Below are positions 3,982 to 30,556 of a stretch of DNA of 64,000 nucleotides, piece after piece. The stretch spans positions 1-64,000 of the IMG/VR virus record IMGVR_UViG_2806310985_000007. One strand, given 5' to 3'. How positions within the stretch are numbered: position 1 is the stretch's first letter; the number at the start of each line of letters is the position of its first letter. The notes beneath the pieces were generated by a model, which saw nothing but the letters and a program-made list of their open reading frames with translations, searched no databases and was not told the DNA's origin. Source of the stretch: a virus. Its lineage: Duplodnaviria; Caudoviricetes. The translations under genes and the position numbers were made by a program.

Positions 3982-5217
3982 CTAAGCAGCTCTTTTGGAA
4001 TAACTGTTTACATACTTAGTTTCATTGAAATTCCGTTTCTCACTCAAAGCTCGACTAATTGCCAAATCGATAGCGGATCTTGATTTTAAGTGATAGTAGT
4101 ACAGTTCTTTGAAAGGCGTATTTAGCCTATCAGTTCTTCCGGCAGACTGCTTCATAATTTTGTAAGAGTAATTTTGCGAGTAGAACACGATGGTGTCAGT
4201 GCTTATGCAGTTCCATCCTTCGGCTCCGGCCGTATACTGCACCAGATAGACCCAACTATCGGAAGTAGGGATTGGCTGATGCTTATGACCATTCCATTCC
4301 GCAACCTCGACATTATCCCCATAATAAAGATTCTTGAGAATATCAAGTTCATAGTCGAAGTTATAGAAAACGATTATTTTTGGATGTTTCTCGAATAGCT
4401 CCATCAAAGCAACTTGTCTGGAATCATCCGAATTCACGATTCTGCGCAACACATAGCACAACTCGCCGGCATTCGTAATCGGTTCGTTTTTATAAGGGTT
4501 CCATCGAAGCTTTGAAGCGTCCTTATACTTGGCGACATCGTACTTCACGCAAATATCTTCGTGGTGTGAGATAGTTTCCCGTTTGAAATCCATCTCCATG
4601 AGAATTCGATTGCGAAGACGTATCAAACGCCCGACGCCTAAATACCGATCCACCTTCGGATACTTGCCGTTTACCCAGGTCATGACCATGTGCTCTTCTT
4701 TGAAAGCTGTTCTGTTTTTATAGAACCCATTGGCTACAAACACTGGAATATAATCCTCCCAGGTATCTCCTGGTGTGGCGGAAAGTAGAATCCACTCATT
4801 AAGCTTGGCTATCTTCAGAAACGCCTTTACCCAAGCTCCGGAACCCACGACCCTCTGTTCATCAAATATAAAAAAGGCGTCCGTTACCGTTGCATACTTT
4901 CCGATGTTGTTCCACGAATCGACTACCACTTTATTGGAATATGAACTTGCTTCTGGATGAGTAGAAAGAAGGAAGGGCGAAAGCTCACCCTCCCATTCCT
5001 TCGTATCCCTTTTTCTTGCCGTTGTGATGATGTACAAGTCTTTAGGGCTTTTCATCTTCACGTATTTTTTTGTTCCGAGTTCGCCTCCGTTTTGTTTGTA
5101 GTAATAGGCTAACGCGGTTCTGGACTTACCGCTTCCAACGCCGCCGCACAGAATGCAGCCGTTTTTCATCCTGTCAACGGCGTCTAGTTGATAATCTCTT
5201 AAAGATATACCGGCCAT
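3982..5217 (-). CDS. SF2 (SNF2/DEAD-like) helicase
   Basis: GGVGSGKS Walker A, FIFDE, LSATPG, QSAGRTDR. Confidence 0.85.
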   Translation of the reverse strand: MAGISLRDYQLDAVDRMKNGCILCGGVGSGKSRTALAYYYKQNGGELGTKKYVKMKSPKDLYIITTARKRDTKEWEGELSPFLLSTHPEASSYSNKVVVDSWNNIGKYATVTDAFFIFDEQRVVGSGAWVKAFLKIAKLNEWILLSATPGDTWEDYIPVFVANGFYKNRTAFKEEHMVMTWVNGKYPKVDRYLGVGRLIRLRNRILMEMDFKRETISHHEDICVKYDVAKYKDASKLRWNPYKNEPITNAGELCYVLRRIVNSDDSRQVALMELFEKHPKIIVFYNFDYELDILKNLYYGDNVEVAEWNGHKHQPIPTSDSWVYLVQYTAGAEGWNCISTDTIVFYSQNYSYKIMKQSAGRTDRLNTPFKELYYYHLKSRSAIDLAISRALSEKRNFNETKYVNSYSKRAA

Positions 5218-12930: not shown

Positions 12931-12944
12931 GATAAACGCTCCTT

Positions 12945-13511
12945 TCAATCATAGCTTGAAAAATAATGGCGGCATTCCTGGAACATCGGAACACCGTAAT
13001 TGCTGTATCCGCCTGCGGTGAAAAACACGCATTCGTAATTCGTCCGTTCCAGCAGCTCTTCCTTTACAAGCTCTACAAGTTCTTCTTTCACATAACAGCG
13101 GTCGACTCTCCCATTCCACATAGATGTGAACTGATTCGGCTGAAATATAACATCAGTTACATTATCCGGAAAGTGCGAATCGTCGACTCGGTTTAAAATC
13201 GTGTCAATTACCAGCCTCTGTCCGAGCTCCGTTTCACCTTCTGCTTCCGCCATTGTTACCAGCGCGATAAGTTCAATTTCTTCCTGCGAAATAGGGTACG
13301 GCCACTCTTCCTCAATCTGTTCCGGTTCCTCGGCAGGCGGCGAAGGTTCCGGCACGGTTTCAACAGGGGATATAGATACCGTCGAAGACTCATCGTTATA
13401 TGTATCCTCGACGGGTTTCTCTTTTACCGGGGCTGCGGCTATCCTCGCTATAATAATGAAGCAAAGGATAAGGCTCAGAAGAAACACCGCGCCCTTTAGT
13501 ATAGTTCGCAT
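12945..13511 (-). CDS. Cell wall hydrolase (SleB/Hydrolase_2-like) with signal anchor
   Basis: MAEAEGE...VIDTILNRV...FP..VTDVIFQPNQF motif. Confidence 0.85.
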   Translation of the reverse strand: MRTILKGAVFLLSLILCFIIIARIAAAPVKEKPVEDTYNDESSTVSISPVETVPEPSPPAEEPEQIEEEWPYPISQEEIELIALVTMAEAEGETELGQRLVIDTILNRVDDSHFPDNVTDVIFQPNQFTSMWNGRVDRCYVKEELVELVKEELLERTNYECVFFTAGGYSNYGVPMFQECRHYFSSYD

Positions 13512-21314: not shown

Positions 21315-21423
21315 GCGCATCCTCCTTTTAAAATGTTTTTTCGAATTTTCAACCCGGGGAATTTTTCAGATATCAATTTAACATGTTTTTCCGTCACCTG
21401 CGTACTGAATTTTAATCTAGGAT

Positions 21424-21451
21424 AAAAAGAAAGAGCCGTTGTTAGCGGCTC
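21424..21451 (-). terminator. Terminator with CTAACAA loop
   Basis: GAGCCG-CTAACAA-CGGCTC then TTTCTTTTT. Confidence 0.75.
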
Positions 21452-21460
21452 AGTCTTTTG

Positions 21461-21745
21461 TTAGGACTTGTGTAATATGTCGATGTAAATTCTTTCTCCG
21501 AGTTTCTTGTCATAGATAATAGATATTTCGAGTTCTCCATCTCGTTCCCATATCCAGTAAGTATTATCATTATATGGATTCCATTTTAAGCCGAACAGCT
21601 CATATATCTTATTCAGATAAATGTAGCCATAAGCCCTGTAACAATCCATGATGTATATTACCTTGGATTTAGTAAAAAGTTTGTTAAACTCAAAATCCTT
21701 TTCCCATGACGAACTGCTTTTGTCAAATGTAATTTTAATGTGCAT
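21461..21745 (-). CDS. Cassette ORF: stand-alone DUF6353-like C-terminal domain; separated from its motif by IS110
   Basis: FDKSSSSWEKD..FN.LF...GYIYLNKIYE.FGL resembles FDSKSRNYE...YN.MF...GHLFLNEVL.L.L in paralog 1. Confidence 0.7.
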   Translation of the reverse strand: MHIKITFDKSSSSWEKDFEFNKLFTKSKVIYIMDCYRAYGYIYLNKIYELFGLKWNPYNDNTYWIWERDGELEISIIYDKKLGERIYIDILHKS

Positions 21746-21771
21746 ATTTTTACACTCCTATTACAATAAAT

Positions 21772-21990
21772 TTGGACAGGAAAGCCGGACAGCCAGTCCG
21801 GCTTTCCCTCCATCTCGTGCCTAAGCTACAATGAGAGGAGCAACTGGCTGACCAATCACTCCTTGGGCTTGTATGTCCGTGTGAAAGACTGTTAGCCATC
21901 CTCTCGTTGCAGCGTTCGATTTAAGCAGGTTGAACCACCGGATGTCGGAGAGTTCGTGTCACACAATAGATTGAATCGGCAGCGAGAAAA
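21772..21990 (+). ncRNA. IS110 bridge RNA (5' hairpin, target-binding loop, donor-binding loop)
   Basis: Hairpin ~21779-21808; target guides CACTCCT 21857-63 and TGTGAAAG 21880-87; donor guides AGCAGGT 21924-30 and AATAG 21965-69; ends approximate. Confidence 0.8.
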
Positions 21991-22032
21991 GATGGATTCC
22001 GGTTGCAGATTCTTTGTATTGGAGGAATGTGA

Positions 22033-23241
22033 ATGAACTGCGTTGGCATCGATGTTTCCAAGGGTAAGAGCATGATTGCAGTCATGCGGCCCTTCGGAGA
22101 GGTAGTGGTTTCACCCTTTGAAGTACGTCACACCGCCAATGAACTGAGCGAGCTGGCAGGACTGCTCAAAAGCCTGGACGGCGAGACCCGTGTGGTGATG
22201 GAATCCACGGGTAATTACCATGCTCCGGTGGCCTGGCTGCTCCACGACGCGGGCCTTTATGTCTCGGTAGTCAATGCAATGCTGGTGCATGACTACGGAA
22301 ACAACAGTTTAAGACGGGCCAAAACCGACAAAAAGGATGCCGTAAAGCTGGCCAACTACGGTCTTGACCACTGGCTCACATTGCCGAGATATATCCCGGA
22401 GGAGGATACCCGACTCATGCTGAAAATCTGCTACCGGCAGTACCAACAGTATTCCAAAGTTCAGACCATGCTGAAGAATAACCTGATCTCCCTGCTGGAC
22501 ACCACCTTCCCAGACGCAAATCGCTTGTTTACCAGTCCGCCCCGCGCCGATGGCAGCGAGAAGTGGGTGGACTTTGTCGCTACTTTTTGGCATTGCGAGT
22601 GCGTTTGTGGCCGGTCTGAGAAGGCCTTTACTACCCAATACCAGAAGTGGTGCAGAAAGCACGGCTACAATTTCAGCGAGGATAAGGCGCTGGATATTTA
22701 TGCCTCTGCTTGCAGACACTTCGGTGTCATACCGAAAACGGATACGGCAAAACTTTTGGTAGAACAGGCCATTTCTCAACTCCAGACAACTTCTTCCGCG
22801 TTAGCTGCTCTCAAACAGGAGATGCAATCCCTGGCAGCTTCTCTGCCGGAGTATCCTGTAGTGATGGGGATGTTTGGTGTTGGCCCAACCCTCGGCCCTC
22901 AACTCCTGGCTGAAATTGGCGATGTACGCCGTTTTCATTCCAAAAAAGCGTTGGTTGCCTTTGCGGGTATTGACGCCCCGCCCTACCAATCCGGTCAAAT
23001 AGATGTCCGTAGCCGTAGCATTTCCAAGCGAGGATCTGCCTCACTGCGCAGGACGCTCTTTCTGGTGATGAGCGTCATCCTGCAATGTGCTCCAATAGAC
23101 GAGCCGGTGTACCAGTTCATGGACAAGAAACGCTCTGAAGGCAAGCCATATCGTGTCTACATGATGGCCTCTGCCAACAAGTTCCTGCGCATCTACTACG
23201 CTTCTGTGAAAGCCTACTTGGAATCCCTGGAGCACGACTGA
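22033..23241 (+). CDS. IS110-family DEDD recombinase/transposase
   Basis: GIDVSK, MESTG, KTDKKDA (DEDD) and YQSG in the C-terminal domain; GGAGG RBS. Confidence 0.95.
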   Translation: MNCVGIDVSKGKSMIAVMRPFGEVVVSPFEVRHTANELSELAGLLKSLDGETRVVMESTGNYHAPVAWLLHDAGLYVSVVNAMLVHDYGNNSLRRAKTDKKDAVKLANYGLDHWLTLPRYIPEEDTRLMLKICYRQYQQYSKVQTMLKNNLISLLDTTFPDANRLFTSPPRADGSEKWVDFVATFWHCECVCGRSEKAFTTQYQKWCRKHGYNFSEDKALDIYASACRHFGVIPKTDTAKLLVEQAISQLQTTSSALAALKQEMQSLAASLPEYPVVMGMFGVGPTLGPQLLAEIGDVRRFHSKKALVAFAGIDAPPYQSGQIDVRSRSISKRGSASLRRTLFLVMSVILQCAPIDEPVYQFMDKKRSEGKPYRVYMMASANKFLRIYYASVKAYLESLEHD

Positions 23242-23372
23242 TTTTTACACTCTATACCATCTGGCTGGCCGCCGTTTTAATTTTGAGATGCTCAGCGGCT
23301 TGATTTTGTATTGCATTTTTTCGCCTCCCTAAAAATCTGAAATTTCTACTTGACTTTTATTAGCAGGTCTTT

Positions 23373-23397
23373 CATAAAGGAGCTTGTTATTCTTGCG
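23373..23397 (-). promoter_or_regulatory. 25-bp cassette-head motif, copy 7
   Basis: CGCAAGAATAACAAGCTCCTTTATG, 2 bp from the IS110 right core. Confidence 0.7.
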
Positions 23398-23590
23398 AAC
23401 TCTCATAAACGATTTTCTTCCGCAAATCCGACCACGAAATATAACGGTCTTTGCGACACACTGGACAATAAAACTTATTGACCTTGCCTCCAATGTCTAT
23501 AATCTCATTGCTATCCGCTTCCAGTCTGCTCTGACAATTCGGGCAGTTGAAGCGATAGACCTTCTTAACAGCCACGTCTACAATCTTCAC
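23387..23590 (-). CDS. Small Zn-ribbon protein
   Basis: CPNC...CPVC. Confidence 0.75.
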   Translation of the reverse strand: MKIVDVAVKKVYRFNCPNCQSRLEADSNEIIDIGGKVNKFYCPVCRKDRYISWSDLRKKIVYESSQE

Positions 23591-23594
23591 GCCA

Positions 23595-24014
23595 TCACCC
23601 TCTTTCTTGGCTGAGCAGCCAGAAGAACCGTCTGTACAAGCTGTAATAAGTATCCTTGCAGCATGGGATGGAAAATTTAATCCTCATGTAATCATAGGAA
23701 ACTTCTTCCGTCACACCTTTCAAAATATAACAGGAAAGTTCCTCGTCTGTTTCTTTGGCCATTCGCTCGATCATGTCCATTCGATTCGAGTAAAATAACC
23801 TTGCCATCGCACATTTAGCAATCGGATCGCTGACATTATTTGTCCTGCTCGGCGGTATCAATTTGGGCCAACTACTCGGAAACCCATCCAGCATGGCATA
23901 CGATTTTCTCCATATCGGATACTGTAGACAGAAATGCTTTAGCTCGTAATAGCGATGTTTTTCAATCCAGTATTGGTTCTTCTCGGATATTTCCGGTCTT
24001 ATCGTTGTGCTCAT
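23595..24014 (-). CDS. RinA/ArpU-like phage transcriptional regulator
   Basis: YYELKHFCLQY..W; C-terminal HTH-like VSYDY...YY..YRRFFWLL. Confidence 0.65.
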   Translation of the reverse strand: MSTTIRPEISEKNQYWIEKHRYYELKHFCLQYPIWRKSYAMLDGFPSSWPKLIPPSRTNNVSDPIAKCAMARLFYSNRMDMIERMAKETDEELSCYILKGVTEEVSYDYMRIKFSIPCCKDTYYSLYRRFFWLLSQERG

Positions 24015-27258: not shown

Positions 27259-28830
27259 TTATGCTTTAATTTCCTGCCCGTCCTTAAAAGCAAACCGCAC
27301 ATCGTCCCTGGCATAGACTGTTACATAATCAATCAGCCCGCACCAGAGGGCAGGGTCAAATTTCTCCATCGGGTCAGCCTGCGCCAGCGTGTCCAGAAAG
27401 GCGTCGATTGCCGCCCGTCTGGATTTCTTGTCGGCAAGCGCGGCTTCAATTTCCTCCAGCCGAGCCTTCGCGGTATCGAAACGGGTGGTGAGACCGTCAT
27501 AGCGTTTCTGATATTCCGTTTGGTCGAGCGCCACATGAGCGTTTTCGTAGATGCATTTTTCGATAAGGTCTGAGACGACCATGATCTCATCCTGCAGTTC
27601 TGCGACTTCGGTTTCCAGTGCAGATGTGTCGAAAGCAACGTCCAGCGAATTTCGGAGCGGCGAGATAATCGCCGCTTTTTTGCCAATCAGCTTGTTTGCC
27701 GCTGAGACAAACATCGCTTTAATTTCATCCTCCGTCAAGTGCGGCGTGGAGCATTTTTCCTCGCCGTCATACTTATGATTGCACTGCCAGATAACCCGGC
27801 GGTATTTGCTGTTGGAATGCCAGACCTTCGAGCCGTACCACTCGCCGCATTGTCCGCAGCGTATCTTACCGGAGAAAAGATGGACGCCGCTGTGTCGCCC
27901 ACGGCTGCTTTTTCTACGCTCCAGTTCCTGCTGAACCAGCTCAAACACCTCCGGCTGGATGATGGCTTCGTGGTTGCCCTCCACATAGTACTGCGGAATC
28001 TCTCCCTCGTTGACCTTTTTCTTTTTGGTGAGGAAATCCACCGTGTAGCTCTTTTGAAGAAGCGCATCGCCTTTGTATTTCTCATTGGTGAGGATGCTGC
28101 GAACAGCTCCTGCGTTCCATTTATCCTTGCCGCCCGGCGATTTAATGCCGTCAGCGGTTAGCCTGGCGGCAATGCCGTGCGGCGTCATGCCTTGCAGGAA
28201 CATACTGTAAATGCGGCGGATGATAACCGCTTCGTCCTTGTTCAAAACCAGATTGCCGTCAGGACCCCGGTCGTAGCCGAGAAACCGTTTGAATGGCACG
28301 GTGACCTTCCCGTCAGCAAACCGTTTTCTCTGTCCCCATGTACAGTTCTCGGAAATGCTGCGGCTTTCCTCCTGTGCCAGTGAGGACATGATGGTAATAA
28401 GTAGTTCTCCCTTGCTGTCCAGGGTCCAGATGTTTTCTTTTTCAAAATAGATCTCCACGCCTTTTTCCTTGAGCTGGCGCACCGTGGTCAGACTATCTAC
28501 CGTATTGCGGGCGAATCGGCTGACCGATTTGGTGACGATGAGGTCTATCTTGCCAGCCAGTGCATCCGCCACCATGCGTTTGAATCCCTCGCGGTGCTTG
28601 GTATTCGTACCCGTTATGCCCTCGTCCGTATACACGGAAACAAACTCCCAATCGTCCCGGCTTTTGATATAGTTGGTGTAATAGTCCACCTGGGCGCTGT
28701 AGCTGGTGAGCTGCTCCTCGCTGTCCGTGGAAACACGGGCGTAGGCGGCGGTGCGGCGCTTTTTCTTTTCATTGATCGGCGTTGCCGTGAATCGGCTTAT
28801 CGTCGCCGGTATTGTCGTTACTTTCGCCAC
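27259..28830 (-). CDS. Large serine recombinase 1
   Basis: YARVST, SVSRFARN, recombinase domain, CGQCG Zn-ribbon, coiled coil. Confidence 0.95.
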   Translation of the reverse strand: MAKVTTIPATISRFTATPINEKKKRRTAAYARVSTDSEEQLTSYSAQVDYYTNYIKSRDDWEFVSVYTDEGITGTNTKHREGFKRMVADALAGKIDLIVTKSVSRFARNTVDSLTTVRQLKEKGVEIYFEKENIWTLDSKGELLITIMSSLAQEESRSISENCTWGQRKRFADGKVTVPFKRFLGYDRGPDGNLVLNKDEAVIIRRIYSMFLQGMTPHGIAARLTADGIKSPGGKDKWNAGAVRSILTNEKYKGDALLQKSYTVDFLTKKKKVNEGEIPQYYVEGNHEAIIQPEVFELVQQELERRKSSRGRHSGVHLFSGKIRCGQCGEWYGSKVWHSNSKYRRVIWQCNHKYDGEEKCSTPHLTEDEIKAMFVSAANKLIGKKAAIISPLRNSLDVAFDTSALETEVAELQDEIMVVSDLIEKCIYENAHVALDQTEYQKRYDGLTTRFDTAKARLEEIEAALADKKSRRAAIDAFLDTLAQADPMEKFDPALWCGLIDYVTVYARDDVRFAFKDGQEIKA

Positions 28831-30535: not shown

Positions 30536-30556
30536 GAAATCACTCCTTTCCGACAC

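What the first reader, a model, noticed from the sequence alone, without database searches (positions are those of the whole stretch)
21751..21913. IS110 bridge-RNA target loop is programmed against a Shine-Dalgarno sequence
Seen: the reconstructed empty site is TACACTC-CT-TTCATA. In the non-coding left end, stem TGGCTGAC/GTTAGCCA (21845-52/21891-98) encloses CACTCCT (21857-63, identical to left target plus core), a small hairpin, and TGTGAAAG (21880-87, complementary to core plus right target with one G:T). Established: IS110 elements such as IS621 use a bridge RNA with this left/right guide geometry and a CT core. Inference: the encoded target, read on the other strand, is TGAAAGGAGTG, a Firmicutes RBS. 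This element would therefore home to translation starts, spare coding sequence, keep AGGAG intact, and uncouple genes from their promoters, as it has done here for 21461-21745.
Basis: partly seen in the sequence, partly recalled or inferred. Interest (0 to 1): 0.85.

Follow-up and report, generated by a model that had tools for sequence, protein, structure and literature searches.

The report
Insertion sequence homing to ribosome-binding sites
A jumping gene of the IS110 family, sitting in a gut-bacterial prophage, carries a guide RNA whose target loop spells a ribosome-binding site, so it and its relatives land just upstream of gene starts; the mechanism is known, and the choice of target is the notable part.

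Summary
An intact 1.6-kb IS110-family element lies at 21760-23368, flanked by CT at both junctions.

The left end folds into a 5' hairpin and two internal-loop stem-loops, as in a bridge RNA. The first loop holds CACTCCT, identical to the left flank plus core. It also holds TGTGAAAG, complementary to the core plus right flank with one G:T.

Across more than 50 independent insertions of relatives in Clostridia and their phages, flank sequences change together with the loop sequences (0 of 10,000 shuffles reach the observed match).

About 80% of left flanks carry an ORF start 7-20 nt beyond the junction on the opposite strand. These counts are 43 of 54, 19 of 24 within one genome, and 18 of 22 in a second set.

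Of 37 distinct target loops, 28 encode at least 7 contiguous bases of the complement of a host 16S 3' tail. Relatives down to about 55% protein identity share the habit, and a few lineages have retargeted.

Not shown: RNA expression, activity, and the claimed uncoupling of genes from their promoters. IS900, of the same family, was already reported to target translation initiation signals, so this is a new member of a known kind.

The parts
21461..21745 (-). Target gene (94 aa, weak DUF6353 match). Its start codon is at 21743-21745.
   Evidence: ORF list; Pfam; 91-97% identical proteins next to the uninterrupted site in L081 and L082.
21753..21759 (+). Left target half-site CACTC (21753-57) plus CT core (21758-59). 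On the minus strand, 21755-21759 reads AGGAG, the Shine-Dalgarno sequence of the target gene, 9 nt before its ATG.
   Evidence: Sequence; limit of homology with identical copies elsewhere; empty sites.
21760..23368 (+). IS110-family insertion sequence, 1609 bp between the two CT cores. It has no terminal inverted repeats and no duplication other than the 2-nt core.
   Evidence: Boundaries from 78 loci and from empty sites.
21762..21767 (+). TACAAT, a -10 box. In the circular form it would lie 17 nt after the TTGACT of the right end, making a junction promoter.
   Evidence: Read; spacing counted as 13 nt of right end + CT + 2 nt of left end. The concept is from PMC11208160. No circle junction was observed.
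21773..21812 (+). 5' stem-loop of the predicted bridge RNA.
   Evidence: Consensus fold of 18 relatives, with compensatory changes at several pairs; single-sequence fold.
21825..21913 (+). Target-binding stem-loop. The outer stem is 21825-39/21899-21913 and the inner stem 21845-52/21891-98, enclosing an internal loop with the two guides.
   Evidence: The variable columns of an otherwise 91%-conserved alignment fall in the two guide segments.
21855..21863 (+). Left target guide ATCACTCCT. Its last 7 nt are identical to the window's left flank plus core, and all 9 nt are identical to the flanks of L005, L008 and L009.
21880..21887 (+). Right target guide TGTGAAAG, complementary to CTTTCACA. The window's site is CTTTCATA, giving one G:T.
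21914..21978 (+). Donor-binding stem-loop with basal stem CGATT 21917-21 / AATCG 21974-78. AGCAGGT (21924-30) is identical to the right end 23362-68. AATAG (21965-69) is complementary to CT plus the first 3 nt of the left end.
   Evidence: by eye. In 55-57% relatives both guides change together with their ends: TGCAGG with TGCAGG, and AACAG with CTGTT.
22033..23241 (+). Recombinase gene, 402 aa, intact.
   Evidence: Pfam DEDD_Tnp_IS110 1.5e-32 and Transposase_20 2.4e-19; NCBIfam NF033542 'IS110 family RNA-guided transposase' 244 bits against a cut-off of 140; IS621 (8wt6) E 8e-19 and ISCro4 (9t56) E 5e-17.
23350..23355 (+). TTGACT, the -35 half of the predicted circle-junction promoter.
   Evidence: Read.
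23369..23376 (+). CT core (23369-70) plus right target half-site TTCATA.
23387..23590 (-). Upstream gene of the interrupted operon (67-aa zinc-ribbon protein, phrog_2834). Its stop codon lies 16 nt from the insertion point.

Best explanation
The element at 21760-23368 is an intact IS110-group insertion sequence that chooses its target with a bridge RNA encoded in its 273-nt non-coding left end.

The target-binding loop carries a left guide (A)AUCACUCCU and a right guide UGUGAAAG. The left guide has the same sense as the 3' tail of 16S rRNA, so it would pair with the DNA strand that carries AGGAGTGAT. The right guide would pair with the other strand just upstream. Together they specify about 14 bp, which on the gene strand reads TGTGAAAG-GAGTGAT, a strong Firmicute ribosome-binding site.

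Recombination at the CT/AG core puts the element at the 5' edge of the Shine-Dalgarno sequence. The recombinase gene always lies antisense to the target gene. AGGAG and the start codon stay together, while everything upstream is moved 1.6 kb away.

The donor loop matches the element's own ends, and the circular form would rebuild a TTGACT-17-TACAAT promoter.

This specificity is a trait of a whole clade of Clostridial elements spanning 55-100% recombinase identity. It gives them landing sites in any host, phage or conjugative element.

Shown here: the anatomy, the empty site, guide/flank covariation, and the association with gene starts. Inferred: that the RNA is made and used as in IS621, that the copy is active, and every effect on expression of the neighbouring gene.
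For: Family membership: domain and family matches and IS621/ISCro4 structure matches.

RNA structure: the consensus fold has a 5' hairpin plus two internal-loop stem-loops, with 73 pairs of which 10 show compensatory changes. The single-sequence fold gives -92.9 kcal/mol against -62.9 +/- 4.6 for shuffles.

Empty site: present in L081 and L082.

Covariation:
- 55 distinct left flanks with 17 left guides match at 5.71 of 7 positions, against 4.18 when shuffled (0 of 10,000 shuffles reach the observed value).
- 37 right flanks with 16 right guides match at 4.70 of 6, against 3.48 (0 of 10,000).
- Fully compensated examples are L072 (CTTAATTT, 8 of 8) and L071 (CTTATTTA, 8 of 8).

Gene starts: an ORF of at least 50 aa begins 7-20 nt past the core on the opposite strand at 43 of 60 left flanks. 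Six of the 60 are scaffold-join artefacts, giving 43 of 54. The same test gives 19 of 24 in the Intestinimonas massiliensis genome and 18 of 22 in a second set of viral contigs and a 57% relative. Random positions in the same flanks score 19%, other AGGAG sites 33%, and [TG][GA]AAAGGAG[TG] sites 8 of 9.

SD-likeness: 28 of 37 distinct target loops encode at least 7 contiguous nt of the complement of the host 16S tail GGATCACCTCCTTTCT (read), against 4% of random 17-mers of the same composition.

Donor guides covary with the ends in distant relatives. The guide geometry agrees with PMC11208160.
Against: There is no direct evidence of the RNA or of activity.
- Contigs from three metatranscriptome runs contain the whole element with its flanks, but such contigs cannot show transcription, and no circle or excision joint was seen.
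- No Rfam family matched the left end, so the RNA assignment rests on anatomy and covariation.

The ORF criterion is lax: 19% of random positions pass it. 11 of 54 flanks show no ORF start.

The sites are not fully independent. They include related elements, shared mobile elements, and many copies from one genome.

RDG pairing in the window is only 5 contiguous nt.

Conservation of SD-like guides could be inheritance rather than selection.
Confidence: 0.88

Rival explanations
1. The SD-like guides are phylogenetic inertia. One ancestor happened to target a purine-rich motif, and its descendants keep it only because guides change slowly. On this view nothing selects for ribosome-binding sites as such.
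For: All sampled elements are relatives. The best-conserved target positions are those next to the core, which could also reflect mechanistic constraint. Some lineages have left SD space and still have matching flanks: L071, L128, L133 and probably L127.
Against: The guide segments are the most variable columns of a 91%-conserved RNA, yet 28 of 37 variants stay within the 16S-tail complement. The trait persists down to about 55% protein identity, where the surrounding RNA sequence and the donor ends have changed. The escapes show that the positions are programmable, so retention in most lineages needs a reason.
Confidence: 0.2
2. The element uses the IS900 strategy. It targets translation initiation signals so that a host promoter and ribosome-binding site drive an ORF on its own antisense strand (a 'hed'-type gene).
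For: IS900 belongs to the same family. Its hed ORF on the strand opposite the transposase lacks its own RBS and start codon (PMC8141618, passages read). The title of Doran et al. 1997 in that paper's reference list says IS900 targets translation initiation signals to express hed; I saw only the title. The 57% and 83% relatives have antisense ORFs of 347 and 361 aa.
Against: In the window the longest antisense ORF inside the element is 156 aa, and none starts at the right end. The insertion leaves the SD with the host gene instead of presenting it to the element. What abuts the right end on the gene strand is TGAAAG followed by ACCTGC, which is not an SD with a start codon.
Confidence: 0.03
3. 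The conserved flanks are really the ends of the element (boundaries set 5-7 nt too far in), so there is no target specificity.
For: Identical copies share 7 nt on the left and 6 nt on the right beyond the boundaries proposed here.
Against: The empty sites contain one uninterrupted copy of exactly these bases. Identical elements have differing flanks: WIN TACACTC, L004 TCTACTC, and right flanks TTCATA, TTTACA, TTCTCA. The flanks also follow the guides in diverged elements.
Confidence: 0.02

Closest known systems
IS621 of Escherichia coli (IS110 group; bridge RNA; PDB 8wt6)
   Same: Two-domain recombinase (E 8e-19). Left-end non-coding RNA with a 5' hairpin, a target loop and a donor loop. The left guide has the sense of the left target plus core, and the right guide is complementary to the core plus right target. 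CT core. A promoter is rebuilt across the circle junction (PMC11208160).
   Different: Only distant sequence relatedness: two aligned stretches, and 402 aa against 328 in the solved chain. PMC11208160 annotated REP elements to see how often the wild-type IS621 bridge RNA targeted them (methods passage). Here the natural target is the ribosome-binding site of protein-coding genes, and the right guide is informative over about 5 nt beyond the core.
IS900 of Mycobacterium avium subsp. paratuberculosis (IS110 family)
   Same: Same family. Reported to target translation initiation signals in one orientation (title of Doran et al. 1997, seen in the reference list of PMC8141618).
   Different: As I recall, IS900 separates the ribosome-binding site from the start codon and presents the site to its own antisense hed ORF; I could not read the primary paper. 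Here the element inserts at the 5' edge of the SD, leaves the SD and start codon together, and has no hed-like ORF. No link between an IS900 guide RNA and its target turned up in my searches.
ISCro4 / IS622 and CazIS110-1 (other characterised bridge recombinases)
   Same: ISCro4 recombinase matches at E 5e-17. CazIS110-1 comes from Caloranaerobacter azorensis (abstract of 10.1101/2025.10.25.684509); I recall this is a clostridial genus, and no call checked that.
   Different: No SD specificity appears in the abstracts and passages I read. I made no sequence comparison with CazIS110-1.

Membership tests
IS110 family, IS110 group (bridge-RNA-guided recombinase elements) | Recombinase with an N-terminal DEDD RuvC-like domain and a C-terminal Tnp domain | tested here: met
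   PF01548 1.5e-32 and PF02371 2.4e-19; NF033542 244 bits against a cut-off of 140. In the alignment to IS621, the GID, E-(S/A)-TG, KTD..D and SG motifs line up. That these are the catalytic residues is recalled, not tested.
IS110 family, IS110 group (bridge-RNA-guided recombinase elements) | No terminal inverted repeats; no target duplication beyond a 2-nt core present at both junctions | tested here: met
   CT at 21758-59 and 23369-70, and a single CT (AG) in the empty sites L081/L082. The two ends are not inverted copies of each other, by eye.
IS110 family, IS110 group (bridge-RNA-guided recombinase elements) | Long non-coding left end upstream of the recombinase gene, folding into a 5' stem-loop plus two stem-loops with internal loops | tested here: met
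   273 nt lie between the element's start and the ATG. Consensus fold and z = -6.5. RNAalifold drew the donor region as small hairpins; the basal stem CGATT/AATCG with an internal loop was placed by eye.
IS110 family, IS110 group (bridge-RNA-guided recombinase elements) | Target-loop guides match the left target plus core (same sense) and the core plus right target (complement), and covary with them | tested here: met
   0 of 10,000 shuffles reach the observed match, on either side.
IS110 family, IS110 group (bridge-RNA-guided recombinase elements) | Donor-loop guides match the element's own right and left ends | tested here: met
   AGCAGGT 21924-30 equals 23362-68. AATAG 21965-69 is complementary to CTATT at the left junction. 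In relatives L144-L147, TGCAGG goes with TGCAGG and AACAG with CTGTT (by eye). The right donor guide is short (5 nt contiguous).
IS110 family, IS110 group (bridge-RNA-guided recombinase elements) | Circular intermediate that rebuilds a sigma-70 promoter across the joined ends | tested here: inconclusive
   The joined ends would give TTGACT-17 nt-TACAAT. No circle joint was seen in the three RNA-library contig sets laid, and the raw-read run held no reads.
IS110 family, IS110 group (bridge-RNA-guided recombinase elements) | The non-coding RNA is expressed, binds the recombinase and directs recombination | not testable with these tools
   Needs small-RNA sequencing and a recombination assay.
IS900-type targeting of translation initiation signals (hed strategy) | Insertion between the ribosome-binding site and the start codon (feature recalled from the older literature) | tested here: not met
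   AGGAG (21755-59, minus strand) and ATG (21743-45) stay together on the same side of the element.
IS900-type targeting of translation initiation signals (hed strategy) | ORF on the strand opposite the transposase that spans the element and lacks its own RBS and start codon (PMC8141618) | tested here: not met
   The longest antisense ORF in the element is 156 aa (22309-22779); none opens at the right end.

The most novel reading that the evidence does not exclude
The left guide of this clade copies the 16S rRNA anti-Shine-Dalgarno tail (AAUCACUCCU against GAUCACCUCCU in a host). On this reading selection holds the guide there, and the mimicry does more than pick DNA sites. The abundant bridge RNA, or its truncated target-loop form, would also pair with Shine-Dalgarno sequences on nascent mRNAs. 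It would then either find its DNA target through transcription-coupled strand opening at gene starts, or damp translation initiation in trans.
Probability: 0.07. Interest if true: 0.85.

Novelty: new member of a known kind. Interest (0 to 1): 0.6.

Why it matters
This is a natural case in which a programmable guide has settled on a short motif that every gene-dense genome of the host phylum must keep in hundreds of copies. That fits the spread seen here. Copies identical over about 1.62 kb occur in six named genera and two metagenome-assembled genomes. Copies also lie in prophages and a sequenced phage.

It offers a mechanistic explanation for the old observation that an IS110-family element aims at translation start signals.

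Each insertion is oriented and sits at a fixed distance from a start codon. Such insertions therefore mark real translation starts and are likely polar mutations of the gene or operon behind them. This matters when reading gut-Clostridia and phage genomes.

For users of bridge recombinases, it shows that guides about 14 nt long with 1-2 mismatches are enough for productive natural insertion at many sites.

Tried and rejected
Rfam. The region 21400-23700 at E up to 1 gave one chance hit (Plastid-psbM, E 0.91) on the left-end hairpin and no bridge-RNA family.

Other collections. Plasmids gave no match. The window's own record holds one copy only.

Terminator or outward promoter in the left end. 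The simple scan found none on the gene strand inside the element. I therefore neither support nor reject polarity.

'Nested' elements in Intestinimonas massiliensis. At first these looked like insertions into the element's own target loop, or like a longer composite element. The whole-genome search showed duplicates of the last or first 130-140 bp with a single N at each join. I read them as scaffold joins of overlapping contig ends, not biology, and dropped those junctions from the counts.

RNA evidence. Three metatranscriptome contig sets hold the element and one raw-read run holds nothing. This is no proof of transcription and shows no joints. It did add one more insertion site, with an ATG nine nt past the AGGAG at its left junction (X18).

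Frames crossing the junction. The test is crude because open frames were not required to have starts, so I use it only as a caveat.

Literature. Seven searches found no paper that links a bridge or seek RNA guide to a Shine-Dalgarno target. Durrant 2024 and Siddiquee 2024 were read only as 'find' passages. Their supplementary target tables were not seen and may list SD-like targets. Mahillon & Chandler 1998 could not be fetched. Doran 1997 was seen as a title only.

I ran no structure prediction, complex prediction, large protein-database search or covariance model, since the question did not need them.

An exact 12-nt repeat joins the left flank (21746-57) and the sequence just after the recombinase stop codon (23241-52). 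I noticed it and did not test it against chance.

Full report
WHAT IS THERE

The window is part of a 73.8-kb provirus record. Between 21760 and 23368 lies one copy of an IS110-family element. Its 402-aa ORF (22033-23241, + strand) matches several family models:
- DEDD_Tnp_IS110 and Transposase_20;
- NCBIfam NF033542 'IS110 family RNA-guided transposase', 244 bits against a cut-off of 140;
- the solved IS621 and ISCro4 recombinases, E 8e-19 and 5e-17.

BOUNDARIES AND EMPTY SITE

A scan of one genome per prokaryote species returned 78 loci with 82-100% identical recombinases. Seven records are identical to the window over 1619-1622 nt and one more is 99.9% identical. They come from six named genera and two metagenome-assembled genomes.

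Their homology with the window runs from 21753 to 23374. That span is the element plus CACTC-CT on the left and CT-TTCA on the right.

Two related viral contigs (L081, L082) carry the neighbouring phage genes with the uninterrupted sequence ...TTTATGAAAGGAGTGTAAAAATATG.

The insertion lies between the stop codon of a 67-aa zinc-ribbon gene (23387-23590, minus strand) and the Shine-Dalgarno sequence of a 94-aa gene (21461-21745, minus strand). Both belong to a run of small phage genes of unknown function near a serine integrase.

THE RNA

The 273-nt left end is 91% conserved across 18 chosen relatives, and the variable columns fall in two short segments.

The consensus fold has a 5' hairpin, an enclosing stem, and a long stem-loop (21825-21913). 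The internal loop of that stem-loop carries the two variable segments on either side of a small hairpin. Of 73 predicted pairs, 10 have compensatory changes. The window's sequence folds at -92.9 kcal/mol, against -62.9 +/- 4.6 for shuffles.

A second stem-loop has basal stem 21917-21/21974-78. It carries AGCAGGT, identical to the last bases of the right end, and AATAG, complementary to CT plus the first bases of the left end. In 55-57% relatives both change together with the ends.

Joining the ends would give TTGACT-17 nt-TACAAT.

This is the published bridge-RNA anatomy. The sense of each guide agrees with the description for IS621 (PMC11208160, passages read). No Rfam family matched.

DO THE GUIDES SET THE TARGET?

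I extracted the loop guides and both flanks from all loci. I dropped duplicates, flanks with N, and scaffold-join junctions.

| Side | Distinct flanks | Distinct guides | Mean match | Shuffled mean | Shuffles reaching observed |
|---|---|---|---|---|---|
| Left | 55 | 17 | 5.71 of 7 | 4.18 | 0 of 10,000 |
| Right | 37 | 16 | 4.70 of 6 | 3.48 | 0 of 10,000 |

Examples of guide and flank changing together:
- GCCTCCT guides go with GCCTCCT flanks.
- TCACCTCT goes with TCACCTCT.
- TTCACTCCCT goes with TTCACTCCCT.
- Right guides encoding CTTAATTT (L072) and CTTATTTA (L071) have flanks matching 8 of 8.

Information extends about 7 nt left and 5 nt right of the core.

IS THE TARGET A RIBOSOME-BINDING SITE?

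On the strand opposite the recombinase gene, the left flank begins AGGAG(T/G)G in most cases. I asked whether an ORF of at least 50 aa starts 7-20 nt past the core.

- First set: yes at 43 of 60 distinct left flanks.
- Six of those 60 are scaffold artefacts (L021, L023, L031, and the inner junctions of L024, L025, L030). Removing them gives 43 of 54.
- Three of the 11 failures are one locus seen in three genomes (L003, L007, L010).
- Intestinimonas massiliensis genome alone: 19 of 24.
- Second set (a GenBank phage, IMG/VR contigs and a 57% relative): 18 of the 22 flanks my pattern caught. The pattern missed several loci, among them L125-L127, L131, L133 and L134.

Controls from the same flanking DNA:

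| Control | ORF start found |
|---|---|
| Random positions | 19% (the criterion is lax) |
| Other AGGAG sites | 33% |
| [TG][GA]AAAGGAG[TG] sites | 8 of 9 |

So the roughly 14-nt motif that the guides spell is close to a signature of real gene starts.

The 16S rRNA of I. massiliensis ends ...GGATCACCTCCTTTCT. Of 37 distinct target loops, 28 encode at least 7 contiguous nt of its complement, against 4% of random 17-mers of the same composition. The left guide is thus close to a copy of the anti-Shine-Dalgarno tail.

Relatives with only 55-58% identical recombinases, with different donor ends, still have ..CCTCC guides and flanks that read as a start codon followed by an SD. A few lineages have left SD space and have matching flanks: L071, L128, L133 and probably L127.

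WHAT IS NOT SHOWN

Expression of the RNA, circle formation and activity are inferred from IS621.

Three metatranscriptome contig sets contain the whole element with flanks. One of them adds a further site at a gene start. Contigs cannot show transcription, and no joints were seen.

The claim that the neighbouring gene is cut off from its promoter is plausible, since the promoter side is moved 1.6 kb away. It is untested. The scan predicted neither a terminator nor an outward promoter on the gene strand within the element.

'Sparing coding sequence' holds for the window, where the upstream stop codon is 16 nt away. It is only approximate overall.

KNOWN OR NEW

The machinery is the known IS110 bridge-RNA system. 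An IS110-family element aiming at translation initiation signals is also in print for IS900. I saw the title of Doran et al. 1997 and a description of the hed ORF in PMC8141618.

This element differs from that strategy. It leaves the SD and start codon together and has no antisense ORF opening at its end.

In seven literature searches and in the passages read, I found no statement that a bridge or seek RNA guide encodes an SD, or that a clade conserves this. Supplementary target tables could not be opened. I therefore file it as a new member of a known kind, with a noteworthy clade-wide target class.

VERDICT

- Observation: confirmed.
- Interpretation: supported in its main claim. The consequences for gene expression remain inference.
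- Interest: 0.6.

Noticed in passing
L018-L038, L073, L084-L113 (Intestinimonas massiliensis record): Many copies are followed or preceded by a duplicate of the element's last or first 130-140 bp, with a single N exactly at the join. This looks like contig ends joined by a scaffolder without merging their overlap, not like nested insertions.
   Followed up: partly
L003, L006, L007, L009, L010, L063; contigs of runs X15 and X16: The identical element sits at the same locus, with the same or nearly the same flanks and no ORF start at the left flank, in records from five different named genera. It probably travels inside a shared mobile element. L008 has the same right flank but a different left flank, as after a rearrangement between two copies.
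   Followed up: no
window 21746-21757 and 23241-23252: An exact 12-nt direct repeat (ATTTTTACACTC) joins the left flank and the sequence just after the recombinase stop codon. The internal copy differs in the 90% relative in the Evtepia phage, so this may be chance.
   Followed up: no
L071, L127, L128, L133: These relatives have target-loop guides that no longer encode a Shine-Dalgarno sequence. Their flanks match the new guides well in L071, L127 and L133, and less well in L128. They are natural retargeting events.
   Followed up: partly
L114 (PV036445.1, Evtepia phage) 1265-1494: The record annotates tiny same-strand CDSs left of the element. On the opposite strand a 139-aa ORF starts 12 nt from the junction behind AGAAGG. 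The deposited annotation may miss the real target gene.
   Followed up: partly
L118 1628-2671 (-) and L076 3130-4215 (-): Long ORFs (347 and 361 aa) lie antisense to the recombinase gene in two relatives. The window's copy has none longer than 156 aa. Whether they are real was not tested.
   Followed up: no
L080 (about 3995-4270): In this copy the match to the window's element is split in two, with about 275 bp of extra DNA replacing about 65 nt inside the recombinase gene.
   Followed up: no
window 27259-28830 (-): A large serine recombinase (phrog_95 integrase, 1.8e-152) lies about 4 kb from the element. It places the insertion in the small-gene region next to the prophage integration module.
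   Followed up: no
window 12937-12947, 23712-23722, 30541-30551: These are the only other sites in the window within one mismatch of the 11-nt core target. None is occupied.
   Followed up: no
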